From a virus, in the IMG/VR virus record IMGVR_UViG_3300045988_115111, positions 1-36,240 of that record: 36,240 nucleotides of DNA; one strand, given 5' to 3'. The translations under genes and the position numbers were made by a program. Within the stretch, counting starts at the first letter, position 1; each line of letters starts with the position of its first letter. Below are positions 1 through 36,240 of the stretch, piece after piece. The notes under the pieces were generated by a model. It was not told the DNA's origin. It searched no databases and saw only the letters and a program-made list of their open reading frames with translations.

Positions 1-2
1 TT

Positions 3-2956: not shown

Positions 2957-3082
2957 TTACAGCCCGCCCGCGATTAGGTCAGCCACGGCGACAAAGCCAA
3001 TTATGAATAGCCACAGGCCGGCTAGTAGGACCACGCTCATAGCCAGTTGCTCCCACAGGGGCGGGGTGTTTGTATTGCGCAT
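2957..3082 (-). CDS. small single-pass membrane peptide (41 aa) transcribed divergently from the repressor gene
   Basis: The reverse complement encodes MRNTNTPPLWEQLAMSVVLLAGLWLFIIGFVAVADLIAGGL. A GGAGAGG RBS lies 8 nt upstream of the ATG at 3082. The peptide is below the 60-aa cutoff of the ORF track. Confidence 0.35.
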   Translation of the reverse strand: MRNTNTPPLWEQLAMSVVLLAGLWLFIIGFVAVADLIAGGL

Positions 3083-3104
3083 GTTGTGAACCTCTCCAGT
3101 GTTC

Positions 3105-3130
3105 TAAAATCCGCTCAACGTTCAGTTTTT
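3105..3130. promoter_or_regulatory. operator-like inverted repeat TCAACGTT-N10-AACGTTGA in the divergent switch region
   Basis: A perfect 8-bp inverted repeat lies between the divergent small-peptide gene (ATG 3082) and the repressor-like gene (3217/3274), in a locally AT-rich region. Confidence 0.45.
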
Positions 3131-3273
3131 AAAACGTTGATATTCAGATTATGCGTCGACCGATCGTTTAACGCAAAACTCTGTAATTACTCGCCCCCCT
3201 TACGGGGGTATATAGAATGCCTGAGCAGGGGTTTTCCCTGTTCAGCTTTTCGACCATGAGCTACACTGGCACC

Positions 3274-3897: not shown

Positions 3898-4310
3898 TGC
3901 AATTAGATAGGTTAGCCATACTAGCCGACAACATGGGCCTAACCATCACCTACCACCGGGAAGGCCCGAAAGGCTTTTATGATGATCAAGCCCACCGCGT
4001 CAGCATCCGCGCCGATGTCACCAAAAACTACCGGGAGCACGTCTGGACGCTAGCCCATGAAATAGGCCACGCGGCCAATCAACACAGGCCAACCACAGAC
4101 CCCACTATCAACGCCCGACAAGAGCTACAGGCCAATAGATATGCCGCCGCCTTACTTATCAAGGCCACAGACTACGCGATGGCCGAAACACTCACAGGCG
4201 GCCACCCCGGGGCTATAGCTAACGAGCTAGACCTCCCACGCCACGCCATAGAATTCTATCAACAGCACAGCCCACACGCGCAGAAAGCGCCCCACGCATG
4301 GCTAGCGTAG
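3897..4310 (+). CDS. ImmA/IrrE-family zinc metallopeptidase (COG2856-like)
   Basis: 137 aa with the HEIGH zinc-binding motif (LAHEIGHAANQH). It sits immediately downstream of, and coupled to, an HTH protein, which is the typical ImmR/ImmA arrangement. Confidence 0.65.
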   Translation: MQLDRLAILADNMGLTITYHREGPKGFYDDQAHRVSIRADVTKNYREHVWTLAHEIGHAANQHRPTTDPTINARQELQANRYAAALLIKATDYAMAETLTGGHPGAIANELDLPRHAIEFYQQHSPHAQKAPHAWLA

Positions 4311-5362
4311 ACAAATACACGATCAAAGCCGGGACTAGGTGGCGCGTCCGATACACCACCCCGGACGGCAAACGCCACGCCAAACGTGGTTTTAAAACCA
4401 AAGCCGCCGCACAAGCGTGGGTGGCCCAAAACTTCCAAGAAATAGAAAACGGCAAACTCCACCCCACCACCACGGCGCCCACCATCAGCGAGCTATGGGG
4501 GCAGTACAAACGCCTAGAACTCAAATACTTAGCCCCCACTAGCCAACAAAGCCTAGAGACGTGCTACCGCGTGCACGTTAAGCCCCGCTGGGGTGAATTC
4601 CCCGCCGATACAATAACCCGGCCAGACCTAACAGAGTGGGTCCACACACTAGCTGGCAACCGATCAGCTAGCCTAGTTCAGCGGGCCGTTAGTCTCGTGC
4701 ATAAGCTTTTGAACTATGCAAAAGAGGGAGGGCATATCGACGTTAACCACGCCGACCGCCTACCACTGCCACCCAAACGCCCGAAAGAGGCCACCCCGCT
4801 AACGGGGGAGCAACTCATACGGCTAGCAAATAATGCGGGCCGCTATCGCTCCCTGGTCCTTTTCATGGGCACCACGGGGGCGCGCCTAGGTGAATGCGCC
4901 GCCCTCACACCATCAGACATAGACGAAAAACGCGCGCGGGCAACCATCTCTAAAAGCATCAGTTACATAGGCGCTAAACCTGTTTTAGGGACCACGAAAA
5001 CGGGGCGGGTTAGGCGCGTAGCGATCCCTGCCCCCACCCTAGCCGCCGTCCTAGAGGCCATAGGGGATAAAGGTGGCAACGAGTTTATCTGGGAACGTCC
5101 ACAGGGCGGTCCAGTGACAAACCCGGGTAAGCGGGGCTGGTGGTCCAGGGCGATTAAAGAGTCCCGGAAGCAAGACCCCACATTTCCGCACATTAGTATG
5201 CACGATCTTAGGCACACCGCCGCGTCTCTTATGATCCAGGCGGGGTGTAGCGTTTTAGTGGTGCAGCGTCAGCTAGGTCACTCTTCCGCAAAAATGACGT
5301 TAGATGTCTATAGCCACCTTTTCGACAGTGATCTAGACGCGGTGGCTGATCTTTTGAGCTAG
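4298..5362 (+). CDS. int: tyrosine integrase (phage integrase family)
   Basis: 354 aa. The N-terminal SAM-like/AP2-like arm-binding region is KAGTRWRVRYTTPDGKRHAKRGFKTKAAAQAW. The C-terminal catalytic residues are R...HDLRHTAAS...LGHSSAKMTLDVYSHL (R, HxxR, Y). Confidence 0.92.
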   Translation: MASVDKYTIKAGTRWRVRYTTPDGKRHAKRGFKTKAAAQAWVAQNFQEIENGKLHPTTTAPTISELWGQYKRLELKYLAPTSQQSLETCYRVHVKPRWGEFPADTITRPDLTEWVHTLAGNRSASLVQRAVSLVHKLLNYAKEGGHIDVNHADRLPLPPKRPKEATPLTGEQLIRLANNAGRYRSLVLFMGTTGARLGECAALTPSDIDEKRARATISKSISYIGAKPVLGTTKTGRVRRVAIPAPTLAAVLEAIGDKGGNEFIWERPQGGPVTNPGKRGWWSRAIKESRKQDPTFPHISMHDLRHTAASLMIQAGCSVLVVQRQLGHSSAKMTLDVYSHLFDSDLDAVADLLS

Positions 5363-5373
5363 TGGCGTTTTGA

Positions 5374-5393
5374 GTGGTCCACAGGTGGTCCAC
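5374..5393. promoter_or_regulatory. tandem 9-bp palindromic motifs GTGGTCCAC-N2-GTGGTCCAC (site 1)
   Basis: Seen directly. The same pair recurs at 5579-5598. The 11-bp register places both copies on one helical face, as expected for a protein-binding site (operator or integrase arm-type site). Confidence 0.45.
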
Positions 5394-5430
5394 GTGATGG
5401 GGGTTTTTAGCGTTTATGCTGGTAGGCGGC

Positions 5431-5447
5431 TCGACTATTATAGTCGA
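5431..5447. promoter_or_regulatory. 17-bp palindrome TCGACTAT-T-ATAGTCGA
   Basis: Perfect 8-bp arms around a central T. It lies between the two GTGGTCCAC sites. Confidence 0.35.
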
Positions 5448-5476
5448 TTCCTCTCTGGGGCACTTTTTTATAGCGT

Positions 5477-5514
5477 CCCCTAACCTGTGTTTATGCAGGT
5501 TGGGGGCTTTTTTG
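5477..5514 (+). terminator. intrinsic terminator downstream of int
   Basis: The stem CCCCTAACCTG / CAGGTTGGGGG is followed by CTTTTTTG. Confidence 0.5.
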
Positions 5515-5578
5515 ACAAATGTGCCCTATGTATGTATGTAGTTTTCCGTCGGTTTGTGATGGGTGTAAGTGGTCCACA

Positions 5579-5598
5579 CGTGGTCCACGGCCCCACAC
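5579..5598. promoter_or_regulatory. tandem 9-bp palindromic motifs GTGGTCCAC-N2-GTGGTCCAC (site 2)
   Basis: Second copy of the site at 5374-5393. It lies about 125 bp upstream of the moron gene start at 5724. Confidence 0.45.
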
Positions 5599-5723
5599 AG
5601 GGCGCCGCGCTCGACCGCGTAACTGTGTGACGTAAAACACTGTAACCATAGGTTGCAATTGTGCAACCGCCGCGTTACGATCATGGTGTAAGCAAAAAAC
5701 AAAACAAGAAAGGAACCCCCACA

Positions 5724-24878: not shown

Positions 24879-26537
24879 TTACACGATCAACAAACCGCCG
24901 CCGCCATCGTCATCATCATCAATAAGCGGCGCGTCTTCCAACTCTTCCACGACGTCCTCAAAGTCGTCGGCGGCATAAGCGCTAATGAACTTTTCCGGGG
25001 GGTTTAACGCCGCCCACCACGCGATATTACAAGCAACAAACGGGCTAATATCGCCAAAGGATTTGCCGCGATCCCAGATAAAGACGTCACCGGCTTTACG
25101 CTCAACAGCCGCCAAAGCCGCCTCATTTAAAACAGGCTGGTCAATATGGACCACCCGCCCCGATTGGATGGCGTCAAAGAATCCAAGAGTGGATCGGGTC
25201 ATATCCCCGCCCTGCCACGGGCGCACAGTAAAACCAGCGTCAGCCAAACCCGGGGCCAAAGCCTGGGACGGTGAACCCTTCACTTGGAGAGCAACAACAC
25301 CATCGCACCACGACCCCACGCGGGGCCGTAGCCAATCAACCACCCACGAATAGCCGGGGCGCGCCGCCACAACCTCCACGTGAACGACACCGTCCCCACG
25401 ATCAGCGGCAACAGCGATATAAGCCGCCCGGCCATCCACAGCCACATCCACGCCCACCGCTATAACCGCATCATCCGGGATAGTAGCCGATGGGTCCGCC
25501 AAAGGCTCCCACATCGCCGGTAGAATCTTTCCAGGCTCAACCGACTGGACCCACTGGCAAAGGTACTCAGTTCTAAAACCATCAGGGTTAGGCGTTGACC
25601 TAACCTCCGCCTGCAAATGCTCCAACTTCGCCGCGCCATAACCCAAAGATGGGTTTGCCTGCAACATCCCCCGCGGGTCATCAATCGGCAATGCTGGATC
25701 GGCGGACCACGAAAACAACGCCATATTAGACGCGTCTGATAAGCCCGCGTTTACAGCCTCCAAGCACTGACTACGCAAATCCTGCAAGACAATAGAACTA
25801 GCGTCGCCAGCGTTTGAGAACGCCCACACCTGGCCAAAAGGCCGCTGGCTCACCGTTGGGGTGATAGCGTCCCACGCGTCCCATTTAATATGCTCTCGCA
25901 GCTCGTCGAAAAACGCCAGGTCCACCGTCATAGAGCGACCGCCCTTACGCGTGGAAGTGGTGACGCTCCAAAACGGCGGACCGTCTTTAGCTAAATCCAC
26001 CGCCCCATCCACCGGGGCGCCCGTCAACTTAAACATATGGCCGCCGTTAACGCGCGTGATGTATTTGCCGTTGAATTCGTCATCTTCGTCGGCGCGCGTA
26101 TTATCTCGCAGCCACTGCGACAGTACAGGGTTAAATGCAGCTATGCGGAACGCATCCGCCAAAGTGCCCTCAGCGTACTTCAAATTCTGAGCCGTTGAAA
26201 TGATCCCAGACGCGCCAAACACAAACAAACGCCACAGGCCAAGCACGACCATAAAGTGAGTCTTACCGTTTTGCCGGGCAACTTCAACAATGACGCGCTT
26301 AAAACGAAAATCCGACCCATCTGCGTTATACTCCAAGCCATGCAACGCTAGCCACTGCTGGAACGGGCGCAAAGGCTGGCCGATCAATTCCGCGAACTCA
26401 ATAAGCGAAAACCCCGCGGTAGTTTGAGGGGTAAGCTCCCGCCCACCCAACGTCGGAGGGAACAAACGCGGCACGGTGTGACCATGCTCCCCATCATCCA
26501 GAAGACTCCAAGCCTCCATTAATCGCGCGTAGTCCAT
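24879..26537 (-). CDS. terL: terminase large subunit
   Basis: 552 aa. The Walker A motif is VARQNGKTH. The C-terminal nuclease region is D-rich. The gene sits directly upstream of the portal. Confidence 0.8.
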   Translation of the reverse strand: MDYARLMEAWSLLDDGEHGHTVPRLFPPTLGGRELTPQTTAGFSLIEFAELIGQPLRPFQQWLALHGLEYNADGSDFRFKRVIVEVARQNGKTHFMVVLGLWRLFVFGASGIISTAQNLKYAEGTLADAFRIAAFNPVLSQWLRDNTRADEDDEFNGKYITRVNGGHMFKLTGAPVDGAVDLAKDGPPFWSVTTSTRKGGRSMTVDLAFFDELREHIKWDAWDAITPTVSQRPFGQVWAFSNAGDASSIVLQDLRSQCLEAVNAGLSDASNMALFSWSADPALPIDDPRGMLQANPSLGYGAAKLEHLQAEVRSTPNPDGFRTEYLCQWVQSVEPGKILPAMWEPLADPSATIPDDAVIAVGVDVAVDGRAAYIAVAADRGDGVVHVEVVAARPGYSWVVDWLRPRVGSWCDGVVALQVKGSPSQALAPGLADAGFTVRPWQGGDMTRSTLGFFDAIQSGRVVHIDQPVLNEAALAAVERKAGDVFIWDRGKSFGDISPFVACNIAWWAALNPPEKFISAYAADDFEDVVEELEDAPLIDDDDDGGGGLLIV

Positions 26538-26823
26538 CCATCACCGCCCTATTACGTTTAGGCCGCCCACGCGTCTTAGGCGCATCATCAGACGGCGCGC
26601 CGGGGGTTAAACCTAACGTCATCAAAGTCTTCAACAAATGCGGCCCTAAATACAGCGCCTTAGTCCGATCCTCCGACGACGCGCGCTCACTATCATCAAT
26701 CTGACGTGCGTACGACAAAGCAATAGCCACCGCGCCACTATTCCGGGGGTCATCCATCAGCCCAGAGGCGTCCACGGCCTTCAAAACAGCCGCCTCTACC
26801 TCCCCAACACGCCTAGCACTCAT
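26494..26823 (-). CDS. terS: terminase small subunit
   Basis: The ORF track gives 26494..26937. The start at 26823 (MSARRVGEV) follows the GGAGGTGGTGAAA RBS. It overlaps the terL start by 44 nt. The C-terminus is basic (KTRGRPKRNR). Confidence 0.5.
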   Translation of the reverse strand: MSARRVGEVEAAVLKAVDASGLMDDPRNSGAVAIALSYARQIDDSERASSEDRTKALYLGPHLLKTLMTLGLTPGAPSDDAPKTRGRPKRNRAVMDGLRAINGGLESSG

Positions 26824-27089
26824 TTTCACCACCTCCAAAACAGGGGCTAAACCCCTAAAAGTCCAGCAAAAACACGCCACAACCCGCATATTATTCAGGG
26901 GGCTATGCAACCGTGGGGGGAAATGCCAGGTCCCCACCCCTTGACTTTTCCGGGTTTTTTCCCTTAGTGATCTTTACCCCCTACCCCTTTGACCTGGGCT
27001 TTTGCCGTTTGGGGCGTTGTGAGGTGTTGTGGTTTGTTTTATGCATATTATACATCTGTTTGTATGTTATGCGTTTTATGTTTGCCTAG
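26824..27089. other. candidate cos/packaging-recognition region between the HNH and terS genes
   Basis: 266-bp ORF-poor region. It carries the direct repeats CCCCACCCCTTGAC (26932-26945) and CCCCCTACCCCTTTGAC (26977-26993) and a T6 run. The flanking HNH-terS-terL arrangement is typical of HK97-like cos phages. Confidence 0.4.
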
Positions 27090-27380
27090 TCACCATATTC
27101 GGCTTGTGTTGCCGATGGGTTGTATGGCTACTCCGTCACTTTTGTGTCTGTTGCACGACGCGTGGACGGGTTGAATGTTATCTTCTACCAATTCTAGGTG
27201 TGGGTGTGTTTTTGTTGGCTGTATGTGGTCTAGGTCGAGACTGTTTGGGTGATATGTGGTGCGCGGGGCTTGATAGTCGATGGGTTGGCCGCATATGGCG
27301 CAAGGTTTGTTCTGCTCTTTGTATTGTGCTTGGAGGCGTTTGCGTAGGCGGCGGGCGGCTGGGCTGTCTGTGAATGGCAT
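27090..27380 (-). CDS. HNH endonuclease (packaging-associated)
   Basis: 96 aa. The HNH/zinc motifs are CAICGQ...LDLDHIQP...NIQPVHASCNRHK. A GGAGG RBS precedes the start. It lies immediately upstream of terS. Confidence 0.75.
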   Translation of the reverse strand: MPFTDSPAARRLRKRLQAQYKEQNKPCAICGQPIDYQAPRTTYHPNSLDLDHIQPTKTHPHLELVEDNIQPVHASCNRHKSDGVAIQPIGNTSRIW

Positions 27381-27433
27381 GTGTGTTACCTCCCGCGCGT
27401 GTCTTTGTATTTTGTTGTGTGTGTAGGTTTAAA

Positions 27434-27463
27434 GCCCCGCCTACCGCGTGTGGTGGGCGGGGG
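27434..27463. promoter_or_regulatory. GC-rich hairpin in a 256-bp ORF-free segment (27381-27636)
   Basis: The stem GCCCCGCCTACC / GGTGGGCGGGG encloses the loop GCGTGT. It lies upstream of the HNH-terS-terL operon and may be a late-promoter regulatory element, an early-operon terminator or a small RNA. Confidence 0.3.
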
Positions 27464-27636
27464 CGGCGGGTCTCTCCGATACACTGCCGCTATTGACAGG
27501 GGACAGCATGGCCACGCCTAAAAGCTGTCAGAGTAAGACCGCTAGCGATAGTGGAACGTTTACTTTGGCAACCCATGATGGGACCCCACAGTGGGGGCGC
27601 TGTTTTGCAATTATAGCATGTGGTGGTGTATGGGTG

Positions 27637-28191
27637 TCAAGTGGTTTGCGTTAAGTAGTCCACTACCTGGGCTAGCTTGTAGTGTTTTCCCCTGTGTGTC
27701 CAGGCTTGTTCTATGTGGCCGCGTGTGGCTAGGGTGTGTAGTTCTTTGCTTGTGGTGGTGTAGCCTAGCCGTTTGAGTTTATAGAGGATGCTGTGTTCTG
27801 CCTCCCATGTGGTGGGCGGCGTGGGGTCTGTAGCCGGGGTGGGTGGTTGTAGGCTACGGGTGATTGTGGCTAGATCCTCGTAGGCTAGTTGATTGGCTTC
27901 CTTATTGTCTACGATGTCCCCGGCTTTGTGGTATAGCCATGTTGTGTGCCTGTGGTGTGGGGGTGGGGTGTTTAGTAGTTCTGCTAGTGCTGTGGTGAGT
28001 TCTTTTAGGCTATTTTCTCCCTCTATGGTGGTGTTGAGCCAGTGTAGGTTGCAGGGTGGTTTTGGGCCGTAGGGGGCGCGGGTGTGTACTTCTGGTGGTG
28101 TGGTGGTGGCTGTGATGTTTGCGCGGGCTGTGTGTAGGGCGTCTGTTAGCTTGTCTATGCCTCTGAATAGGTCTATGTACGTCGCATACAT
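27637..28191 (-). CDS. hypothetical Thr/Pro/His-rich protein; coding status uncertain
   Basis: 184-aa ORF inside the strand-skew block. The AC-rich coding strand is depleted in stop codons, so a long ORF is weaker evidence here than elsewhere. Confidence 0.35.
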   Translation of the reverse strand: MYATYIDLFRGIDKLTDALHTARANITATTTPPEVHTRAPYGPKPPCNLHWLNTTIEGENSLKELTTALAELLNTPPPHHRHTTWLYHKAGDIVDNKEANQLAYEDLATITRSLQPPTPATDPTPPTTWEAEHSILYKLKRLGYTTTSKELHTLATRGHIEQAWTHRGKHYKLAQVVDYLTQTT

Positions 28192-28194
28192 GGG

Positions 28195-28527
28195 TTAGAG
28201 TCCTAGCCTGTCTAGTATGGTTTTGAATTCTTCTATTGCGTGGTATATGCCCGCGTTGAATTCTTCAAACCCTCTGCCCTTGTTTTCTTCGTCGGGTGTA
28301 TTTAGTTCGCGTTCCCACCAGTCGAGCTCTAGGTGTAGCCTGTTGAGTTTTTCGGGTGTGGGGGTAGGGTGCATGTGTCCCTCCTGTTGTATTTGTGTGG
28401 GGCTATGTAGCCTTGGACCCTCTAGCGTGTTTATGTTGCCAGAGGGTGGGCGTGGGTTTAGGCTCCTGTTGATCCGTGGCCGTTGTTCCCGCGTTGCGTT
28501 TCTTCGAACTCTATAACGTGCTGCCAA
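28195..28527 (-). CDS. hypothetical protein (probably the shorter form starting at MHPTPTPEK)
   Basis: 110-aa ORF whose 5' part overlaps the dut 3' end. The internal start gives about 59 aa. Confidence 0.3.
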   Translation of the reverse strand: MAARYRVRRNATREQRPRINRSLNPRPPSGNINTLEGPRLHSPTQIQQEGHMHPTPTPEKLNRLHLELDWWERELNTPDEENKGRGFEEFNAGIYHAIEEFKTILDRLGL

Positions 28528-28877
28528 TCAACCTCTACAGTCTTGTGAATGATCAGCTGGGCGACCCTCTCCCCGCAATGAATCGTGTAGGTGTACGGGC
28601 CAAAGTTGACAAGATTAATGAGAACTTCACCCGTGTAGCCGGGGTCGATGACACCGGGGGCGTTGAGCACGGTGATACCGTAGTTTGCCGCCAGGCCACT
28701 GCGTGGGCACACATAGCCGACGGTGCCAGCCGGCAGACCGATGTGTAGACCGGTGGGGATTAGCGCATGTTGGCCGGGTTTCAAGATTTGGTCCGCTGTG
28801 GACACAAGGTCGTACCCCGCGTCTGTGGGGTGAGCTTTCATAGGCGCGGGGACAATGTGATTGATGGGGGTGGGCAT
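28458..28877 (-). CDS. dut: dUTP diphosphatase (trimeric dUTPase)
   Basis: All five dUTPase motifs are present: AGYDL, RSGLA, GVIDPGYTGE, GERVAQL and RGNNGHGSTG. Confidence 0.9.
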   Translation of the reverse strand: MPTPINHIVPAPMKAHPTDAGYDLVSTADQILKPGQHALIPTGLHIGLPAGTVGYVCPRSGLAANYGITVLNAPGVIDPGYTGEVLINLVNFGPYTYTIHCGERVAQLIIHKTVEVDWQHVIEFEETQRGNNGHGSTGA

Positions 28878-28925
28878 TGTTAGTCTCCTAGGGGTTGTAT
28901 TGTTGAGCGCGGGGGTTTGCTCCCG

Positions 28926-29171
28926 CTAGCGTTCTGCTAGTTCCTTAATTCGATCTGGTTTAAAACCCGCCCATTCATCAATTAAGCCCCCTGTGTTGTC
29001 TAGGACTTGAACAAAGGGGGCCGTCTGGTATCCCAATTCCTTTAACTCTGGGATGGTGTAGGGCGCTTCTGATATATGGGCTTCCACATAGGGTGTGCCC
29101 TGTCGTGTGAGTAGTCTTTTTGTTTGCCTACATGCTACACAGTTAGGTGTGCTATATACTGTGATCTTCAT
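28926..29171 (-). CDS. nrdH: NrdH-like glutaredoxin/redoxin
   Basis: The start MKITVYSTPNCVACRQ follows the AAGGAAGGAGAAGG RBS. It has the CVAC active site in a thioredoxin fold (81 aa). Confidence 0.75.
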   Translation of the reverse strand: MKITVYSTPNCVACRQTKRLLTRQGTPYVEAHISEAPYTIPELKELGYQTAPFVQVLDNTGGLIDEWAGFKPDRIKELAER

Positions 29172-29916
29172 TGCCTTCTCCTTCCTTGATCGTTTCGGCG
29201 GTCTTAGCCCAGAGGGTTTGCTCATTAGCTGCAAGCCTGTCTTTCATGATCTGAACGTTATGGGCCAGGGCTTCCACGCCGATAGCGTTTAGTCCCAGGT
29301 TTTGCGCCGCTACCAGGGTGCTGCCAGACCCGGCAAAGGGGTCTAAGACTGTTCCGCCCTCAGGGACTAGACCTAGTAGGAATTCCATGAGTTCCACGGG
29401 CTTCTCAGTCATGTGGAACCGCTTAGCCTTAGCGGGGGTGGATTGTTGCCAAAACCCGCCTAGGGCGCCCCCTTCTTGTGGGCGGGCGCCGTTTGTTCCC
29501 CACACCACATATTCGCACGTGTTCGCGTAGCGGCCTTGTTGCCTGCGCCCGTTTGGTTTATGCCAGGGGATAATGCCGCGCCACACGACGCCACCGACCT
29601 GTAGGACGTCCGTCACGGAGGGTAGTTGCCTCCAATCCGTGAATACGGCGATAATTCCCCCGGGTTTGGTTACCCGTAGGGCTTCTGTCAACCACAGGTT
29701 GAACCACAGTAGGAAACTGCGCTGGTCCCTGTTATCGCCGGAAAAGTCGAGATAGTTACCTTGAACTTTCATGTATTTTTGTCCGGCTGACTGTTTCCTG
29801 CTAGTGGAATGTAGACCGCCACTGGAATAAGGCGGGTCTGTGATGACAGCGTCCACGCTATCGGCGTCTAGGGTGGGTAGGACTTTTAGTGTGTCCCCGT
29901 GGATGACTTTTATCAT
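29152..29916 (-). CDS. orphan DNA methyltransferase, beta-class amino-methyltransferase (N6-adenine or N4-cytosine; PF01555-like)
   Basis: Motif IV DPPY is near the N-terminus (VITDPPYSSG) and motif I FAGSGST near the C-terminus, which is the beta-class order. No cognate restriction endonuclease is present in the window. Confidence 0.8.
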   Translation of the reverse strand: MIKVIHGDTLKVLPTLDADSVDAVITDPPYSSGGLHSTSRKQSAGQKYMKVQGNYLDFSGDNRDQRSFLLWFNLWLTEALRVTKPGGIIAVFTDWRQLPSVTDVLQVGGVVWRGIIPWHKPNGRRQQGRYANTCEYVVWGTNGARPQEGGALGGFWQQSTPAKAKRFHMTEKPVELMEFLLGLVPEGGTVLDPFAGSGSTLVAAQNLGLNAIGVEALAHNVQIMKDRLAANEQTLWAKTAETIKEGEGNEDHSI

Positions 29917-30089
29917 GCGGCCCCCATTCCCCAGGCGCGGGCCAGTGTCTTATGTCCTGTGTCTGTGATAATTCCCCCGTGGTTGATTAGGCCACGGTCT
30001 AGCAATAGTTGGGTTTGCGTTTGGGTTATCTTTTTTCCGCCCGCGTATTTTTCCAAAGCTTGCAGTGTGAATTCCCATATGTCACTCAT
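29913..30089 (-). CDS. small protein (58 aa) translationally coupled to the methyltransferase
   Basis: MSDIWEFTLQALEKYAGGKKITQTQTQLLLDRGLINHGGIITDTGHKTLARAWGMGAA. Its stop TGA overlaps the methyltransferase ATG (ATGA at 29913-29916). Confidence 0.4.
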   Translation of the reverse strand: MSDIWEFTLQALEKYAGGKKITQTQTQLLLDRGLINHGGIITDTGHKTLARAWGMGAA

Positions 30090-30318
30090 GAGTCTGTCCT
30101 TCCAGTTCGCTATGCGCCCAAATGATTAGGTCTGCAAAAGCCTTCACATTGGCGACGTCCATTCCCGCTAGTTTCCTTACAGCCACGACGGGGGCACCGT
30201 CCACATCTCGAATAATGGAGGTGTTGCCCACCAATCCGGCGGAAAACGGGCCGGGCGGTAGGGCGTCGTGGAGCTGTTTCAAAAGCGCCTTATATGCCTG
30301 CTTCTCTTCATCGGTCAT
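30082..30318 (-). CDS. hypothetical protein
   Basis: The start MTDEEKQ at 30318 follows a GGAGGG RBS and overlaps the upstream stop as ATGA. Confidence 0.4.
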   Translation of the reverse strand: MTDEEKQAYKALLKQLHDALPPGPFSAGLVGNTSIIRDVDGAPVVAVRKLAGMDVANVKAFADLIIWAHSELEGQTHE

Positions 30319-30701
30319 TGTGTGCCCTCCATTTCGTCGAGTTCTGTAGCCTTCCAAGCCAGCCAGTTATTAAGCTCCTTCATCCGCGCGGGGGCAGAGT
30401 TCACCAAACGCAACAGGGCGTCCCGGTACCCGTACGCGAATCCCGGGAGCATTTCACGCGGCCAGGCCGGTAATGCGGCGCTGATTTTTAACGCTAGGTT
30501 GTAGTAGTGATTTACGACACGCATAGTAGGGCGTTCCATCACCTGCCTAGCCGTGGCCAATTCCTGTAGTGCGTAGATCACGCCGCAAACTTCCACCCAC
30601 GCCCACTCCGCGCCATGTGTCCAGGGCGCGTCGCCGTAGCCGTCTGGAATATCAAACGCCGCCGCCACCGCGCTAGTTTCCGGATAAATGCCCGTCATCA
30701 T
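30315..30701 (-). CDS. hypothetical protein
   Basis: 128-aa ORF in the early operon. Confidence 0.4.
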   Translation of the reverse strand: MMTGIYPETSAVAAAFDIPDGYGDAPWTHGAEWAWVEVCGVIYALQELATARQVMERPTMRVVNHYYNLALKISAALPAWPREMLPGFAYGYRDALLRLVNSAPARMKELNNWLAWKATELDEMEGTQ

Positions 30702-30901
30702 TCCCCCGTGATTTTGTTTGTTTCACACAGTCTCAAGTCCCGGGGGTCTATATATTCCCCGAGGCTGGCTAGCGCCCCGTATTCTTCCATCATCGTTAGG
30801 TAAGTGGTAGACATGAGTAGCCCACGGCTTAACCTGTTGATTAGCGCGTTCGCTTGCTCAATCTCAGACGCCGTCATATTGTCATGCACGATTAGACTCA
30901 C
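30698..30901 (-). CDS. hypothetical protein
   Basis: 67-aa ORF coupled to its neighbours by 4-nt and 20-nt overlaps. Confidence 0.35.
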   Translation of the reverse strand: MSLIVHDNMTASEIEQANALINRLSRGLLMSTTYLTMMEEYGALASLGEYIDPRDLRLCETNKITGE

Positions 30902-31346
30902 TGCTTAGCCCTCCTGCTAGTTGATAGTTTCCCGGCGCCACGGTGGATAATTCCAGCCACATTAGAGGCATTAAGCCTTTTACAGCCGGGTGGATAATCG
31001 GCTCAGGCTTAGACATGTAGGCGGGTGTGTCATCCGGGGCTAGGCCCGCGTCTACCAGCCCGTCACATACGGCCTTGAGGGTGGCGACTAGGTTGTCTGT
31101 GTCCCGCCGTCTTTTATCCCGTGGTAGGTAGTGCAAACGCACGGATAGGCGCCCGTAGCGTTCCCATCCCATCATGTGGAGACCCCCTTGCCGCGCGTTC
31201 AACATAGTAAGCCCACGCACAGCTTTAACGTCTGTAGCGTGGGCGTGGTGGTGCTTACGTACGTTTAACGATAAGGGGGGTTTATCCCAGGGCAACACCA
31301 TTAGGGCGCGGGGCGCGTGGGGATCATCAGAACGGCGGCTCATCAT
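30882..31346 (-). CDS. rusA: RusA-family Holliday junction resolvase
   Basis: The segments VLPWDKPPLSLN and LPRDKRRRDTDNLVATLKAVCDGLVDAGLAPDD align with RusA catalytic-core segments. The start is the internal Met at about 31346. The longer ORF 30882..31616 overlaps ssb. Confidence 0.8.
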   Translation of the reverse strand: MMSRRSDDPHAPRALMVLPWDKPPLSLNVRKHHHAHATDVKAVRGLTMLNARQGGLHMMGWERYGRLSVRLHYLPRDKRRRDTDNLVATLKAVCDGLVDAGLAPDDTPAYMSKPEPIIHPAVKGLMPLMWLELSTVAPGNYQLAGGLSSESNRA

Positions 31347-31794
31347 TGCCACCACCAAACCCGCCCGTGGGGGCGCTACCCCACGGATCATTAACCGGGG
31401 ACTGTTGTGGGGCTTGTTGTCCCCCGCCGCCGCCCTGCTGCTTTGTGACGTTAGCGTACTGCCTGCGTAGGCTAACGCCCGCGCTAGTGAGCCTAATAGA
31501 CACTGACTCGCGCGGGCCTTCGCTGCTCTGCCATTCCTCCCGCGTTTCCACGCCTTCCACCAGCAGCTCCACCGGGCTACTACAGGTGTTAACGATATTT
31601 TCGGCCAGGGAGTCAAAGGCCAAACAGCTGTAGAACTGTAGCGGCCCGTCTGTCCATGTTCCCGCTTTGTCCTTGATCCGGTCGCTAGTGGTGATAGTGA
31701 ATCGTGTCATGGGGCGCCCGTCACGGGTGCGAGTTAGCGCGGGCGGCTTCTTGGAAGATGTAGAACCCAGTAGGGTTACGTGCTTATTGCTCAT
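31327..31794 (-). CDS. ssb: single-stranded DNA-binding protein
   Basis: 155 aa. An OB-fold N-terminus is followed by a Gly/Gln-rich linker (QQGGGGGQQAPQQ) and the acidic tail NDEPPF. Confidence 0.8.
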   Translation of the reverse strand: MSNKHVTLLGSTSSKKPPALTRTRDGRPMTRFTITTSDRIKDKAGTWTDGPLQFYSCLAFDSLAENIVNTCSSPVELLVEGVETREEWQSSEGPRESVSIRLTSAGVSLRRQYANVTKQQGGGGGQQAPQQSPVNDPWGSAPTGGFGGGNDEPPF

Positions 31795-31808
31795 GTTCGA
31801 CTCCTGTT

Positions 31809-32312
31809 CTAATTATGTGCGAAAAAAGCGGTGTTAGCGTGGTATTTTAGTTGCTTCATCGCTTCGTCTATTTTTTCGATGACACTAGCGGCGCGCCCCC
31901 CACTGGACGCCTCTTTCAGACCCCTTTTAGCTTCTTCGAGCTGTCCCCAGGCTTTAGCGTTTTTGTTAAACTCCCTCATGTCATCGGCGAGGGTTACACA
32001 GTCGTCTAGTGCGTCTAGGGCTAGCCTAATTTTCCACCGGACGCCGTTGATATGTTCGTCTAGCTCGTCTAGCTGTTTTTTGTGGCCTTCCATCGCCCAC
32101 GCTGTTGTTTTCTCGATATTTTCAGGCATGGGGGCTATTTCCATGTAGCCCCAGGCTTCGTCCAGGCTATCGTGCATGGCATCCATGTCCACAAGTGCTA
32201 GATCCGCTAGCCGCTTCATCTCTTGTAGTGCCTCACTGAAAGACGTGTAGGCCTCCCCAAATCCAGTCGGCTCTAGTGGGGTAGTTCCCGTGTCTTGATC
32301 AGTTCCTGCCAC
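31809..32312 (-). CDS. hypothetical acidic protein
   Basis: 167-aa ORF in the replication module. Confidence 0.4.
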   Translation of the reverse strand: MAGTDQDTGTTPLEPTGFGEAYTSFSEALQEMKRLADLALVDMDAMHDSLDEAWGYMEIAPMPENIEKTTAWAMEGHKKQLDELDEHINGVRWKIRLALDALDDCVTLADDMREFNKNAKAWGQLEEAKRGLKEASSGGRAASVIEKIDEAMKQLKYHANTAFFAHN

Positions 32313-32893
32313 TGCTGGTTCCTCTCTTCATTGTTAAAGGGGCCAGAATCGGCCCCAGCTTGCCGCGTCGCGGACTTTTCGGCCTCCCGTGGGGGTTTGT
32401 GTGGGTGCGGGGGTTTGGAGGGCTTAAAACCCCCGCCTTCAGGGTGCGCCAGCTTGTAGCGCGCCGGGTGAGGCATCCGCGTAGGCCCATAAGCCCCAAC
32501 ACACGGCAAACCGGGCTGTGCGCCACAGCGAGGGCAACCCACCCCTAGTGTTCCTGTAGCTTCATAGACCGATTTAGCCAGGCCGCCCGTGTTACGCGGC
32601 GTCGCCGTCAACTCCCGAACAACCATGCCCTGACTAGCCCTTTTCCGAGCATTCCGGGCTTCATCCAGCACCGCGCCCAAAGGGTTGAGCGGGCCACGGT
32701 CCCCGGCCCCATACACCACCGGCACAGCCTTAGCCAGGAATTCCGGGGCCACTCCCGCGCTGGCTAGAACAGGCGCCCACGCGTCGATCTTTCGTTTCGT
32801 AGCGTCCATGTCCAGGCCCGCAAAGCGGGTGTCAAATTCAGCGACTAGGGCCAATAGCTGGGCCGCTACCTCCCCCCAGTTGGGTTGCATCAT
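32273..32893 (-). CDS. hypothetical protein with a CxxC...C zinc-ribbon-like segment
   Basis: 206 aa, containing VGCPRCGAQPGLPC. It is overlap-coupled between the replication initiator and the downstream gene. Confidence 0.4.
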   Translation of the reverse strand: MMQPNWGEVAAQLLALVAEFDTRFAGLDMDATKRKIDAWAPVLASAGVAPEFLAKAVPVVYGAGDRGPLNPLGAVLDEARNARKRASQGMVVRELTATPRNTGGLAKSVYEATGTLGVGCPRCGAQPGLPCVGAYGPTRMPHPARYKLAHPEGGGFKPSKPPHPHKPPREAEKSATRQAGADSGPFNNEERNQQWQELIKTRELPH

Positions 32894-33881
32894 TGCTCAC
32901 ACCTCCCGCCCGTAGAAAATCTAAAAAGCTGTTCCTGCCACGCGCCGCGCGGCTATCAGCCGGGAGGGTTAGTTCGTCCTCCCAGCCGTCACGGTTGAGC
33001 CACGTTGTGGGGTGTGGAATGAACCGGGGGTCGGTACCCGCCCGCTTGTGATGCTCAGCCAGTGCCACGGCCCCGTCGTGGATCACATTCGCGGGAGCGC
33101 GCTTGACGGCGCGTGTCCACGCGTTGAATGCTTTCCGCTTCCCAATCTTCCTCGGGTACGCCTCATAGAATTTTTGGAAGGCTTCGGAATATGGTTTTTG
33201 TTTCGTGGCCGAATCCGCGTCAGCGGGTGAGGTCGAGGGCGCTAGCCCGGTACCGTCCACGTGACTGCCGTCACCGTGTCCGCCGTCACAAGGGATAATA
33301 GGGTTAGTTGTTGGGTTACTAGTTGGTTTATTAATTGGATTGGGTGTCACAGGCGATACCCCGTTCGGTCCGTAGCGATACCCCGTTCCGACCGTAGCGA
33401 TACCCCGTTCCGTTCCAGAATCAGCCAACGGGGTATCAATATGACACCCCGCTAACGAGTTATCCACAGGGTTATCCACAGGTGCGGGCGTCTCCAAACC
33501 ATCATCCGAACGCCCAAAAACGGCCCCCGAATCATCCTCCACAGCCCCAGAATCAACCCGCGCGGGAGCCTTCGACCTATCCAGTTCCATAGCCAGATCC
33601 CAAACAACAGGCCGCCGATCACGTCTATAATGTCCAACCAGTGACTGATCCCCACGCCTAATAAGCCCGTCAGACTCTAACGCCCGCAAATGCCGCGCGA
33701 TAGACCCAGAACTAAGCCCCGTACGCTCAACCAGCCGCCCACGGGACGGGAACGCCGCGCGCCCCTTATCATCCGCAAAGTTAGCCAATTCCAGCAACGT
33801 CCGGAACTTAGCGTTAGGCTCAACAGGCGCCTTATGCATCACCCACAAAATAGCCTGCAAACTCACGTTATAAACCTCCAA
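32838..33881 (-). CDS. replication initiator protein (N-terminal winged-helix/HTH, low-complexity linker, C-terminal YPRKxGK domain)
   Basis: 347 aa. The N-terminal HTH is RTLLELANFADDKGRAAFPSRGRLVERTGLSSGSIARHLRALESDGLIRR. The C-terminal segment is FQKFYEAYPRKIGKRKAFNAWTRA. Iteron repeats lie inside the linker-coding DNA. Confidence 0.6.
   Translation of the reverse strand: MEVYNVSLQAILWVMHKAPVEPNAKFRTLLELANFADDKGRAAFPSRGRLVERTGLSSGSIARHLRALESDGLIRRGDQSLVGHYRRDRRPVVWDLAMELDRSKAPARVDSGAVEDDSGAVFGRSDDGLETPAPVDNPVDNSLAGCHIDTPLADSGTERGIATVGTGYRYGPNGVSPVTPNPINKPTSNPTTNPIIPCDGGHGDGSHVDGTGLAPSTSPADADSATKQKPYSEAFQKFYEAYPRKIGKRKAFNAWTRAVKRAPANVIHDGAVALAEHHKRAGTDPRFIPHPTTWLNRDGWEDELTLPADSRAARGRNSFLDFLRAGGVSNDATQLGGGSGPAIGPSR
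33351..33482. repeat. iteron cluster (candidate origin of replication) inside the initiator gene
   Basis: Three direct copies of CGATACCCCGTTC start at 33354, 33376 and 33398, exactly 22 bp apart. An inverted copy AACGGGGTATC lies at 33427-33437. A tandem GTTATCCACAGG x2 lies at 33459-33482. Confidence 0.6.
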
Positions 33882-35710: not shown

Positions 35711-36240
35711 GCTGCTAATTCCTCTCTCAAGATGTCACACACGCGCACAATTTCATACCCCGCATCCGTAAGTTGCTTAGACTCTGTAAGCAGCCCCCGC
35801 GCATGTAGGCGCGCAAACTCATTAGGTTTAAGTTTTTCCCCACGGTGCAACGCCTCCATTAGCTTCACCACTAAAAAGCCATAGTCATTGATAAACTCCA
35901 TACGGCGGCGCCTCGCTTTAACCCGCGTTAGCGACTGGAACTTAGCTGCATGCCTAATGCACATAGCCAAACCCCACGGGCCGCTGCCAACGCTGTTGCA
36001 ACAAGGATGAACACACGGCCTATATTTTTGCTCATGGGCGGCAGTAGAAAGCCCACCCGATAATTTCAACGCCTCAACAGCGTTAACGGGAACCCACGGC
36101 CCCTTAAAACCCTTGAGCTGGTTGTGAATCTCCAAACCTAAAAAGTCTGCCTTTTCCATCAACTCCCCGGGTGTAGTCTCTAACTTTTCAGCCGCTAAAG
36201 ACAGGTAGGTCCACTTTCGGTTTTGCTTGTCCTCCATCAC
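35707..36240 (-). CDS. hypothetical Cys-rich protein; the gene crosses the contig junction (its 5' end continues at window positions about 56-109)
   Basis: The ORF runs to the window edge. Read across the 55-bp overlap, the frame stays open to an ATG at the reverse complement of 107-109. It contains CVHPCCNSVGSGPWGLAMC. Confidence 0.45.
   Translation of the reverse strand: MMEDKQNRKWTYLSLAAEKLETTPGELMEKADFLGLEIHNQLKGFKGPWVPVNAVEALKLSGGLSTAAHEQKYRPCVHPCCNSVGSGPWGLAMCIRHAAKFQSLTRVKARRRRMEFINDYGFLVVKLMEALHRGEKLKPNEFARLHARGLLTESKQLTDAGYEIVRVCDILREELAA
36186..36240. repeat. 55-bp terminal direct repeat identical to positions 1-55 (assembly overlap of a circular or terminally redundant genome)
   Basis: Exact match of TTTCAGCCGCTAAAGACAGGTAGGTCCACTTTCGGTTTTGCTTGTCCTCCATCAC at both ends. 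Confidence 0.9.

What the first reader, a model, noticed from the sequence alone, without database searches (positions are those of the whole stretch)
26940..28530. 1.6-kb block of extreme strand compositional skew
- From about 26950 to about 28500 the plus strand is almost all G and T. For example, 27001-27060 is about 78 percent G+T with very few A or C. The minus (coding) strand is correspondingly AC-rich.
- The predicted proteins are rich in Thr, Pro, His and Gln.
- The rest of the genome has ordinary high-GC composition.
- The block contains the verified HNH gene, a 256-bp ORF-free segment with a strong GC hairpin, two unassignable ORFs (184 and 110 aa) and the edge of dut.
- Stop codons need T and G, so long ORFs arise by chance on the AC-rich strand. 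The two hypothetical genes may therefore be non-coding.
- Alternatively, the block is a horizontally acquired island encoding anti-defence or takeover proteins, or a region under some strand-specific mutational or structural constraint. It directly abuts the cos candidate.
Basis: seen in the sequence. Interest (0 to 1): 0.65.

Follow-up and report, generated by a model that had tools for sequence, protein, structure and literature searches.

The report
Strand-composition flip at phage cos site
The last 1.5 kb before the packaging (cos) site of this Corynebacterium-type temperate phage holds real genes written almost entirely with A and C on the coding strand, and related phages show the same apparently undescribed feature far more strongly, pointing to an unknown strand-specific process anchored at the DNA end.

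Summary
Window 26946-28457 is 68.5% G+T on the + strand, against 43% elsewhere (z about 7.7).

The artefact reading is wrong. HNH, ORF184 and a 59-aa ORF are conserved genes under purifying selection. Only the 110-aa extension is non-coding. ORF184 is a homologue of phage BFK20 gp54, which sits at the same place before HNH and cos.

The block is not a foreign island. It is the steepest part of a genome-wide, strand-based A+C versus G+T asymmetry, which inverts at the cos site inferred at 26930-26945.

At least six other phage lineages show the same inversion, including the published phage IME1320_01. There A/C reaches 91-98% at third codon positions and 94% in non-coding DNA. One lineage has a non-homologous terminase. 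The syntenic BFK20 has no skew.

Best explanation, at moderate confidence: long-term strand-specific substitution pressure from DNA synthesis that diverges from cos, acting longest on genes locked next to cos. Rare variants show this lineage's block is now eroding, so selection for a motif-free leading end remains a serious rival.

I found no description of this in the literature searched.

The parts
26946..28457 (-). Core skew block. The coding (-) strand is 68.5% A+C. This is the right-end, cos-proximal 1.5 kb of the phage genome.
   Evidence: composition, best window, z about 7.7; third-position A+C is .80-.84, against .23-.44 in late genes.
26930..26945 (-). Inferred cos cleavage site (- strand GTCAAGGGGTGGGGAC). 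This is the point where the skew inverts.
   Evidence: It aligns with the experimentally annotated 13-nt 3' cos of BFK20 (TGAAGGGGGCGAA) and with its conserved flanks. The ends were not determined experimentally here.
26967..26985 (-). Conserved G-rich cos-proximal element, GGTAGGGGG..AAGATCAC. It may be a terminase or HNH recognition site (cosQ-like).
   Evidence: Present at the same place in BFK20, L029, L017, L027, L040 and L068. Coordinates.
27090..27380 (-). HNH endonuclease gene (96 aa), the packaging accessory gene next to cos.
   Evidence: Pfam HNH 2.7e-8 and phrog_338 2e-25. Variable sites by codon position 3:2:56. AC3 is .84.
27381..27636 (-). Non-coding segment holding a promoter-like site, a leader and an intrinsic-terminator-like hairpin. 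It is the probable start of the late operon.
   Evidence: Variable sites are spread evenly over the three phases and there are 20 indel columns. The promoter-plus-terminator layout is seen, with variable confidence, in the other lineages examined, including BFK20. No Rfam match.
27610..27640 (-). Sigma-70-like promoter candidate, TTGACA-N19-TGCTATAAT, overlapping the ORF184 stop codon.
   Evidence: 'CATGCTATAATTGC' is also found in the 43%-diverged B lineage. The consensus scan missed it because the spacer is 19 nt.
27431..27462 (-). GC-rich hairpin (CCCCGCC..GGCGGGG) followed by CTTT. Terminator candidate.
   Evidence: (present in the centroid structure). Equivalent hairpins follow the promoter-like site in L029, L027, L040 and BFK20.
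27637..28191 (-). ORF184, a real gene of the BFK20 gp54 / phrog_12885 family, with a C-terminal winged-helix-like domain.
   Evidence: In the AF2 model residues about 128-184 have pLDDT 82-86. The best fold match is BldC, which is not significant.
28195..28374 (-). ORF59, a real small gene of unknown function.
   Evidence: Variable sites 1:4:21 with no indels in 8 relatives. Independent gene callers called it on 4 contigs. No family match.
28375..28457 (-). Non-coding spacer between dut and ORF59. With 28458-28527, inside dut, it makes up the false 110-aa extension.
   Evidence: Variable sites 22:13:13 with 15 indel columns over 28375-28527.
28458..33000 (-). Weaker A+C-rich domain holding dut, glutaredoxin, a DNA methyltransferase, SSB and a Zn-finger protein. 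AC3 falls from .62 to .41 with distance from cos.
26494..26823 (-). terS (109 aa from the ATG at 26823). It is the first gene of the opposite, G+T-rich domain, with AC3 .23.

Best explanation
**Shown**
- The block is the cos-proximal end of the early arm of a complete 36.2-kb temperate siphovirus of the Corynebacterium phage group.
- Its genes are real. In order they are ORF59, the gp54-like ORF184, a promoter/terminator segment, and HNH.
- The G+T richness of the + strand is the steepest part of a genome-wide, strand-based keto/amino asymmetry.
- The sign of that asymmetry flips within about 60 nt of the inferred cos cleavage site.
- On both sides of cos, the strand running 5'->3' away from cos is the G+T-rich one.

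**Inferred mechanism**
- This is the polarity expected if DNA synthesis repeatedly starts at cos and moves outward.
- Possible forms are forks or strand displacement primed at the cos nicks, nick translation of the annealed but unligated cos, or recombination-dependent replication from the cos ends.
- Such synthesis would leave a strand-specific excess of transitions.
- Genes that must always sit next to cos (HNH, the gp54-like gene, terS, terL, portal) have integrated this pressure longest and are the most extreme.
- Genes that shuffle between positions are intermediate.
- In this window's lineage the pressure seems weak or lost, and the block is decaying.
For: **The skew is strand-based, not gene-based**
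- Reverse-oriented lysogeny genes (1965-5362 +) carry the same strand skew as their neighbours.
- The same holds for the integrase of IME1320_01 and for SamW gp57.

**Strongest at synonymous sites**
- AC3 is .80-.84, against AC1/AC2 of .57-.68.
- Four-fold sites in the block: A .44, C .44, G .09, T .03. In late genes: A .09, C .24, G .35, T .32. The block looks like an exaggerated mirror image of the late strand.

**The inversion lies at cos**
- cos was mapped by alignment to the BFK20 ends.
- The pattern is antisymmetric around cos in lineages A, B, D, E and G: A+C is .70-.90 in the last 1-2 kb and .29-.47 in the first 4 kb after cos.

**Recurrence despite module swapping**
- Lineage B has a non-homologous terL but an even stronger block. 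A+C is 77-94% per 200 nt, and there are pure A/C runs of 101 nt in non-coding DNA.
- HNH AC3 is .98 in L029.96 in L068 and .91 in IME1320_01.

**The skew depends on position, not on the gene family**
- RusA has 94% A/C third positions next to the block in L029, but 93% G/T in the opposite domain of L068.
- The two share only 7 of 57 identical-residue codons.

**The force acts on DNA or RNA, not on protein or translation**
- Non-coding DNA is affected.
- Amino-acid composition is dragged toward Thr, Pro, His, Gln, Asn and Lys.
Against: - **Rare variants run the wrong way in this lineage.** At third positions of the block genes in 9 A-type genomes, 37 rare changes go A/C to G/T and only 2 go back (291 against 51 sites). 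A mutational equilibrium at AC3 .85 would need about 37 reverse events. So the pressure is not acting now in this lineage, or selection is purging the G/T variants.
- **Lineage B is ambiguous.** The per-site rate toward A/C is only 2.5 times the reverse. Synonymous diversity in the block genes is about 6 times lower than in the neighbouring genes, which could mean selection.
- **Amplitude.** AC3 up to .98 far exceeds any replication skew known to me.
- **Sharp edges.** In several lineages the domain edges coincide with gene borders rather than following a smooth gradient.
- **The second switch point varies.** It lies 3-17 kb from cos, next to the HTH_36 initiator-like gene in three lineages and near the antipode of cos in IME1320_01.
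- **No evidence on replication.** Nothing shows that replication or repair synthesis starts at cos in these phages.
- **The unskewed relatives.** BFK20 and phi673, with the same cos architecture, show no skew.
Confidence: 0.4

Rival explanations
1. Selection on the DNA itself. By analogy with lambda, the right end should enter the cell first, and it is left unprotected after the first cos cut. A duplex whose strands are segregated into A/C and G/T cannot contain palindromic restriction sites, mixed-base PAMs such as AAG/CTT, promoters, hairpins, or start and stop codons. It would therefore be a motif-free leading end.
For: - Rare variants in the block run overwhelmingly A/C to G/T (37 against 2), as expected if selection holds the composition against mutation.
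- In lineage B, synonymous diversity is 6-fold lower than in the flanking genes. A<->C transversions, which keep the property, are as common as all transitions.
- Six-bp palindromes fall from 27.7 expected to 2 in the L006 block, and from 23.7 to 13 in the window.
- The skew has been kept across lineages whose synonymous sites are saturated.
Against: - Palindromes are no rarer than the skewed composition itself predicts.
- It does not explain the opposite G+T-rich skew after cos, or G/T third positions of 93% in L068 RusA.
- The genes are transcribed toward the end. The lineage-B ORF191 overlaps its upstream gene, so the block is not an autonomous first-expressed unit.
- The rest of the genome would stay restrictable.
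- BFK20 and phi673 do without it.
- The low-complexity alignment weakens the transversion argument.
Confidence: 0.25
2. Transcription-associated mutagenesis from a strong antisense transcript. It would start near cos and run into the block, exposing the + strand as the non-template strand.
For: - The non-template strand is expected to become G+T-rich.
- The skew is highest next to cos and decays with distance.
Against: - No promoter-like site was found on the + strand near 26950-27100.
- The required amplitude is extreme.
- The skew in the rest of the genome ignores gene orientation.
- Rare variants show no such bias now.
Confidence: 0.07
3. Selection at the RNA or translation level. This could be an unstructured, G/U-free mRNA, a giant Rho-loading (rut-like) C-rich region gating the late operon, or an A/C-ending codon dialect.
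For: - A conserved promoter plus terminator sits inside the block, just before HNH.
- C greatly exceeds G on the transcript.
- A/C-ending codons are those read by Watson-Crick pairing with G34 and U34 tRNAs (own knowledge).
Against: - The skew follows the DNA strand, not the sense of the gene.
- HNH and terS would share one late transcript yet have opposite skews.
- ORF184 and ORF59 lie upstream of the promoter.
- T depletion is not needed for rut sites.
Confidence: 0.06
4. A horizontally acquired island carrying anti-defence or takeover genes.
For: - The composition is locally atypical.
- Two genes have no known function.
- The dut cassette next to the block is variable among relatives.
Against: - GC content is normal.525 against .554.
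- Gene order is conserved down to BFK20.
- HNH is a core packaging gene.
- No source genome is known with 70-94% A+C on one strand.
- The block is continuous with a genome-wide gradient.
Confidence: 0.03
5. The hypothetical ORFs are chance open frames on a stop-poor strand.
For: - An A/C-rich strand has few stop codons.
- Spurious long ORFs do occur on the G/T strand, and gene callers call them in L006, L071 and L072.
Against: - Third-position concentration of variation with no indels.
- Homologues at 43% identity and in BFK20.
- A PHROG match.
Confidence: 0.01

Closest known systems
Replication-associated strand compositional asymmetry (GC/keto skew with polarity switches) in bacterial chromosomes, plasmids and some phages
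   Same: - It depends on the strand rather than on gene orientation.
- It is strongest at synonymous sites.
- There are two domains with a sharp sign switch.
- The G+T-rich strand runs 5'->3' away from the switch point, like a leading strand leaving an origin.
   Different: - Third positions reach 84-98% A/C, far above chromosomal skews as I know them.
- There is a 1.5-2 kb peak next to the switch.
- The switch lies at the packaging site, not at a known origin.
- The arcs are very unequal here (6 kb against 30 kb).
- Present-day rare variants in this lineage do not show the bias.
Heavy/light strand asymmetry of vertebrate mitochondrial DNA (gradient of deamination of single-stranded DNA)
   Same: - One strand is G+T-rich and the other A+C-rich.
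- G is almost absent at four-fold sites of the sense strand.
- Protein composition is dragged along.
- The strength depends on position.
   Different: - This is a double-stranded DNA phage with cohesive ends.
- The sign inverts.
- No strand-displacement replication is known for these phages.
- T is depleted as strongly as G.
Phage T5 first-step-transfer DNA and restriction-site avoidance at the leading end
   Same: - The block is a terminal segment, about 4% of the genome, at the end expected to enter first.
- It is poor in restriction-type motifs.
   Different: - There is no evidence of two-step entry.
- The genes point toward the end.
- Motif loss is only what the composition predicts.
- A mirror-image skew exists on the other side of cos.
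BFK20-type right genome end (thioredoxin, gp54, gp55 HNH, 3' cos) and the HK97 gp74-type HNH-terminase packaging module
   Same: - Same gene order.
- Homologous gp54-like and HNH proteins.
- Same G-rich cos-flanking motifs.
- A promoter plus terminator sits before HNH.
   Different: BFK20 and phi673 have no strand skew at all (A+C .47-.54 within 8 kb either side of cos).
Lambda Q / PR' / tR' late-gene control
   Same: - A DNA-binding-domain protein gene is followed directly by a consensus-like promoter.
- A terminator within about 20-180 nt then precedes the long late operon.
   Different: - ORF184 has no sequence or significant fold similarity to Q proteins.
- Function is untested.
- This concerns the 256-bp segment, not the skew.

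Membership tests
Replication-type strand asymmetry | The skew follows the DNA strand irrespective of gene orientation | tested here: met
   - + strand lysogeny genes at 1965-5362 have AC3 .59-.71 on the + strand, like their neighbours.
- The IME1320_01 integrase and SamW gp57 behave the same way.
Replication-type strand asymmetry | Strongest at synonymous (third or four-fold) positions | tested here: met
   - AC3 is .80-.84, against AC1/AC2 of .57-.68.
- At four-fold sites G+T is .12 in the block and .67 in late genes.
Replication-type strand asymmetry | The sign switch coincides with an origin (or terminus) of DNA synthesis | not testable with these tools
   - The switch lies at the inferred cos, 26930-26945.
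- Whether synthesis starts there is unknown.
- The second switch lies next to the HTH_36 initiator-like gene in three lineages.
Replication-type strand asymmetry | The current mutation spectrum shows the bias that would maintain the composition | tested here: not met
   - A-type block, third positions: 37 rare changes away from A/C and 2 toward it.
- Lineage B: the per-site rate toward A/C is only 2.5 times the reverse, which is inconclusive.
Horizontally acquired genomic island | Atypical GC content, a synteny break in relatives, and cargo or mobility genes | tested here: not met
   - GC is .525 against .554.
- Gene order is conserved in BFK20 and in the other skewed lineages examined.
- No mobility or defence domains were found in Pfam or PHROGs; PADLOC was not run.
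HNH-terminase cos packaging module | An HNH-domain protein encoded directly upstream of cos, terS and terL | tested here: met
   - Pfam HNH 2.7e-8 and phrog_338 2e-25.
- terS matches Terminase_6 at 2.6e-16.
- terL is 46-50% identical to Corynebacterium phage terminases.
HNH-terminase cos packaging module | Cohesive ends at the predicted site | tested here: inconclusive
   There is sequence similarity to the annotated 13-nt 3' cos of BFK20 and to its flanks. The window is a circular assembly with a 55-nt terminal repeat, so it shows no physical ends.
BFK20 gp54 / phrog_12885 family (ORF184) | Full-length homology and the same genomic position | tested here: met
   - phrog_12885 at 1.7e-17 over residues 15-182.
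- P0002 at 43% identity, E 1.7e-27.
- Alignment with BFK20 gp54 shares the GPKxP motif and the C-terminal R-G-H-[IL] domain.
- However, pairwise identity to gp54 is only 22% and I computed no E-value for that pair.
Lambda Q-type late antitermination (ORF184 plus the 256-bp segment) | A promoter followed closely by a terminator at the head of the late operon | tested here: met
   - The promoter-like plus terminator layout is seen, with variable confidence, in lineages A, B, E, F, G and BFK20. The terminator is clear only in A, E, F, G and BFK20.
- This is sequence-level evidence only.
Lambda Q-type late antitermination (ORF184 plus the 256-bp segment) | The protein is related to a known antiterminator | tested here: not met
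   - No Pfam or PDB sequence match.
- Only a non-significant winged-helix match: BldC, TM .68, E 0.7.
T5-like first-step-transfer region | A self-contained, early-expressed unit at the entering end with inward-facing promoters | tested here: not met
   - The genes are transcribed toward the end.
- The lineage-B ORF191 start overlaps the preceding gene.
- The order of DNA entry could not be tested.
Rfam RNA families (256-bp segment) | A match to any curated RNA family | tested here: not met
   No match up to E = 1 over 26400-29000.

The most novel reading that the evidence does not exclude
The near-pure A/C strand at the cos-proximal end is an adaptive, sequence-independent 'motif-free' design. 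By segregating amino and keto bases onto opposite strands, the phage strips the first-entering and unprotected 1.5-2 kb of its genome of several things at once:
- every palindromic restriction site
- mixed-base PAMs
- promoters
- hairpins

It does this while still encoding functional HNH, RusA and gp54-like proteins in a two-letter-biased code.
Probability: 0.2. Interest if true: 0.85.

Novelty: new variant of a known kind. Interest (0 to 1): 0.7.

Why it matters
**Possible readouts**
- If the cause is mutational, the sequence records where and in which direction DNA synthesis or single-strandedness occurs at the cohesive ends of actinobacterial phages. This step has hardly been studied. The signal is strong enough to map cos and domain borders from sequence alone.
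- If the cause is selection, it is a new way for a phage to make its leading end invisible to sequence-specific defences.

**How far recoding can go**
- Conserved enzymes (HNH, RusA) can be rewritten to 94-98% A/C-ending, or 93% G/T-ending, codons depending only on where they sit in the genome.

**Practical consequences**
- Gene callers place spurious ORFs on the G/T strand of these regions.
- Low-complexity filters hide the real proteins from BLAST.

**Testability**
- Cultivable members exist (IME1320_01, CSP1, the C. xerosis phages), so the question can be tested directly.

Tried and rejected
**Searches that found nothing**
- blastn and tblastn of the block and its ORFs against GenBank phages: no match.
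- ORF184 against species-representative genomes: none.
- The terL scan found only relatives at 44% identity or less. The host species of the window is therefore unidentified; Corynebacterium is inferred from relatives.
- Rfam on 26400-29000: nothing.
- Seven literature searches and one paper read found no description of the phenomenon.

**Ideas tested and dropped**
- A shared over-represented k-mer (a Chi-like or protein-binding array) in the blocks of 7 lineages: none. Only coding-related hexamers appeared.
- Palindrome avoidance beyond what composition predicts: none.
- Tandem repeats: none of note in the window block. There is only cryptic simple sequence in the lineage-B non-coding parts.
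- Leader RNA structure: no more stable than shuffles.
- An origin at the HTH_36 gene with normal leading-strand polarity: rejected, because the sign there is terminus-like.
- 5' resection with deamination of the 3' tail: rejected, because it predicts the opposite sign.

**Tests that gave no information**
- ORF184 structure and fold search: only a generic winged helix.
- A polarised substitution test in the C. xerosis Samwavirus phages: the right arms are identical, so it was uninformative.
Full report
**1. The observation**

The + strand of 26950-28500 is 68.5% G+T (A .124, C .191, G .335, T .350) at an ordinary GC of .525. The best 1551-nt window starts at 26946. Elsewhere such windows average .431 (sd .033, max .547), so the block stands about 7.7 sd out. 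300-nt windows reach .737. GC skew is +0.31 and AT skew is -0.50, against -0.28 and +0.09 immediately to the left. The window is itself a complete circular assembly: bases 1-55 repeat at 36186-36240.

**2. What is encoded**

All genes from 6258 to 36240 lie on the - strand. The lysogeny genes lie on the + strand: integrase at 4298-5362, an IrrE-like protease and an HTH repressor.

Read on the - strand, the region runs in this order:
- DNA methyltransferase
- glutaredoxin
- dUTPase (28458-28877)
- ORF59 (28195-28374)
- ORF184 (27637-28191)
- a 256-bp non-coding segment
- HNH (27090-27380)
- cos
- terS (26494-26823)
- terL (24879-26537)

The two 'unassignable' ORFs are real genes.
- Among eight close relatives from IMG/VR, ENA and Logan, variable sites by codon position are 33:15:79 for ORF184, 1:4:21 for ORF59 and 3:2:56 for HNH, with no indels.
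- The leader and the cos region vary evenly and carry indels.
- The upstream extension that makes ORF59 into a 110-aa ORF varies 22:13:13 with 15 indel columns, so it is not coding.
- ORF184 matches phrog_12885 (E 1.7e-17).
- It has a full-length 43%-identical homologue of similar length (E 1.7e-27).
- It aligns with gp54 of Corynebacterium phage BFK20, which occupies the same position just before the HNH gene gp55 and the right cohesive end.
- Only its C-terminal 55 residues model confidently, as a winged-helix-like domain. Fold matches (BldC and other wHTH proteins) are not significant.

**3. Where the block ends**

The stretch between HNH and terS aligns with the annotated ends of BFK20:
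- GGTAGGGGG..AAGATCAC (26967-26985)
- then GTCAAGGGGTGGGGAC (26930-26945), opposite BFK20's 13-nt 3' overhang TGAAGGGGGCGAA
- then TTTCCCCCCACGG (26911-26923)

The same G-rich landmarks recur in L029, L017, L027, L040 and L068. The composition flips within about 60 nt of this inferred cos. The physical ends were not determined, so this is inference.

**4. The block is the peak of a genome-wide, strand-based pattern**

The A+C fraction at third positions of the coding strand is as follows.

| Genes | AC3 |
|---|---|
| HNH | .84 |
| ORF184 | .83 |
| ORF59 | .80 |
| dut, grx, methyltransferase | .60-.62 |
| Next five genes | .46-.56 |
| Zn-finger gene | .41 |
| HTH_36 initiator-like gene | .35 |
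| Remaining - strand genes, to the first gene after cos (terS .23) | .23-.48 |

The + strand lysogeny genes have AC3 .59-.71 on their own strand. This means they carry the same DNA-strand skew as the late genes around them. The asymmetry therefore follows the DNA strand, not transcription or translation.

At four-fold sites the block has A .44, C .44, G .09, T .03. Late genes have A .09, C .24, G .35, T .32. The block looks like an exaggerated version of the complementary strand of the late region.

**5. It recurs, and far more strongly, in other lineages**

Close relatives (A type) share the block. Other lineages are listed below.

| Lineage (locus) | Relationship to the window | Skew |
|---|---|---|
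| B (L006, L012, L079-81) | ORF184 homologue only 43-44% identical; terL not detectably homologous | 1.74 kb before cos is 77-94% A+C per 200 nt; pure A/C runs of 101-102 nt in non-coding DNA; HNH written largely in Thr, His, Pro, Gln, Asn and Lys |
| E (L029) | terL 54% identical | RusA AC3 .94, gp54-like .95, HNH .98, then terS .26 |
| D (L068) | HNH 51% identical | HNH .96 and terL .19, but RusA in the other domain .07 |
| C (L017) | Prophage of C. bouchesdurhonense | Block A+C .67-.72 |
| L027 and L040 | terL 52% and 45% identical | HNH .84-.85 |
| IME1320_01 (published, C. simulans/striatum) | HNH 50% identical to L029 HNH | HNH .91, early arm .63-.83, terL .30 |
| SamW (C. xerosis) | Shares primase/helicase DNA (about 77% identical) with IME1320_01 | Mild form |

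The two RusA genes (L029 and L068) share 57 identical residues but only 7 codons. In L029, 55 of the 57 end in A/C. In L068, 51 of the 57 end in G/T.

Plotted against distance from cos, lineages A, B, D, E and G are antisymmetric. A+C is .70-.90 in the last 1-2 kb and .29-.47 in the first 4 kb after cos.

The skew is absent in these phages:
- BFK20
- phi673
- LGCM-VI
- the C. phocae prophage
- all soil-actinobacterial relatives with terL identity of 39% or less

**6. What this excludes**
- **Non-coding artefact:** excluded (section 2).
- **Foreign island:** GC is normal, the gene order is the conserved core order, and no known genome could donate such DNA.
- **Codon or translation selection:** non-coding DNA is equally affected, amino-acid composition is dragged along, and reverse-oriented genes follow the strand.
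- **Repeated functional motif:** no k-mer is over-represented across the blocks.
- **Palindrome avoidance as such:** palindromes are rare, but no rarer than the composition predicts.

**7. Mutation or selection?**

I polarised rare alleles among 9 A-type genomes at third codon positions.
- In the block genes (291 A/C sites, 51 G/T sites) there are 37 changes away from A/C and 2 toward it.
- In terS plus terL (469 G/T sites, 180 A/C sites) there are 47 changes toward A/C and 28 away (whole-region counts).
- Per site, new variants run mildly toward G/T on the coding strand in both regions. That fits the late genes but is the opposite of what would hold the block at AC3 .85.
- So in this lineage the block is not at mutational equilibrium. 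It is either decaying or held by purifying selection.

In lineage B (4 genomes):
- The per-site rate toward A/C is 2.5 times the reverse.
- Third-position diversity in the block genes is about 6 times lower than in the adjacent dut and orf101.
- A<->C transversions equal all transitions.
- This is suggestive of constraint, but the numbers are small and the low-complexity alignment is a caveat.

Because HNH stays 84-98% A/C across lineages whose synonymous sites are saturated, some force has acted persistently.

**8. Most likely mechanism**

The shown facts are these:
- The asymmetry is strand-based.
- It is maximal at synonymous sites.
- It inverts at cos.
- It is antisymmetric around cos.
- The G+T-rich strand is always the one running 5'->3' away from cos.

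That is the polarity of leading strands leaving an origin. The following is inferred. DNA synthesis would start at cos and move outward, leaving strand-specific transitions. Possible forms are:
- forks or strand displacement primed at the staggered cos nicks
- nick translation of the annealed, unligated cos by a low-fidelity repair polymerase
- recombination-dependent replication from the cos ends

Genes that can never leave cos (HNH, the gp54-like gene, terS, terL, portal) would accumulate the most. Genes that shuffle position would be intermediate. This would explain the sharp steps at gene borders and the two RusA 'dialects'.

Two simple alternatives give the wrong sign:
- deamination of the 3' tail after 5' resection
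- an origin at the HTH_36 gene

I put this explanation at about 0.4. The main rival (about 0.25) is selection for an amino/keto-segregated, motif-free leading end. It fits the polymorphism data better, but it does not explain the mirror-image skew after cos.

**9. The 256-bp segment**

On the - strand, TTGACA-N19-TGCTATAAT (27640-27610) overlaps the ORF184 stop codon. A hairpin, CCCCGCC..GGCGGGG-CTTT (27462-27431), follows, then the HNH ribosome-binding site.

A promoter-like site followed by a terminator-like hairpin occupies the same place in lineages E, F and G and in the unskewed BFK20. Lineage B shares the promoter-like site. 'CATGCTATAATTGC' is identical in lineages A and B.

This layout resembles lambda Q/PR'/tR' and suggests that the late operon starts here. 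ORF184 would be a candidate regulator. This is inferred and no homology supports it. It is a separate matter from the skew.

**10. Known or new**

Strand asymmetry itself is well known. I found no report of the following, either in seven searches or in the paper on IME1320_01/CSP1:
- a cos-centred inversion
- third positions 94-98% A/C
- kilobase stretches over 90% A+C on one strand of a dsDNA phage

The library searched is incomplete, so absence of a report is not proof.

**11. Limits**
- The host of the window is unidentified.
- cos is inferred by similarity.
- Polarisation rests on minor-allele parsimony.
- The lineage-B tests have small counts.
- No experiment bears on replication or DNA entry.

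Noticed in passing
window 1-55 and 36186-36240: There is an exact 55-nt terminal direct repeat. The window is a circularly closed assembly of a complete phage genome of about 36,185 bp.
   Followed up: partly
window 27610-27640 and 27431-27462 (- strand): A consensus-like promoter overlaps the ORF184 stop codon and is followed by a terminator hairpin before HNH. A similar promoter-then-terminator layout appears at the same place in most lineages examined, including the unskewed BFK20. This suggests lambda Q/PR'/tR'-like control of the late operon.
   Followed up: partly
window 26494-26937: The 147-aa terS ORF starting at a GTG is probably too long. Gene callers on relatives, and a GGAGG site, point to the ATG at 26823 (109 aa). 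The longer ORF would run across cos.
   Followed up: partly
L068 6537-6962: This RusA gene has 93% G/T at third positions, the mirror image of RusA in L029 (94% A/C). It lies just left of a second, terminus-like skew switch between two HTH_36 genes.
   Followed up: partly
L006 8577-9185 and 9501-9700 (also L012, L079-L081): These are non-coding stretches of almost pure A/C cryptic simple sequence that are rich in indels between relatives. Gene callers place long spurious ORFs on the G/T strand here (L006 8600-9157 and 9132-9437). A 92-aa antisense ORF is also called over HNH in L071 and L072.
   Followed up: partly
window 5301-5600: This is the only other patch above 60% G+T on the + strand (.627). 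It lies just 3' of the integrase gene and may be the attP region.
   Followed up: no
L072 1307-2136 and L073 3426-3794, against window 28458-28925: The dut slot next to the block is mosaic among close relatives. L072 has three other small ORFs in place of dut, and L073 has an extra 122-aa gene.
   Followed up: no
window, whole: There is a general 19% deficit of 6-bp palindromes across the genome: 454 observed against 563 expected from composition.
   Followed up: no
window 27043-27056 (- strand): GATGTATAATATGC, a -10-like TATAAT, lies between the HNH stop codon and cos. It may be a second promoter reading into terS.
   Followed up: no
L083-L087 (C. xerosis phages SamW, Dina, Lederberg, Adelaide, Troy): The right-arm replication genes (SamW 29636-38122) show only one third-position difference among the five phages (whole-alignment divergence rounds to 0.000). 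The left arms differ by up to 1.3%. This points to a recent sweep or exchange of the right arm.
   Followed up: no
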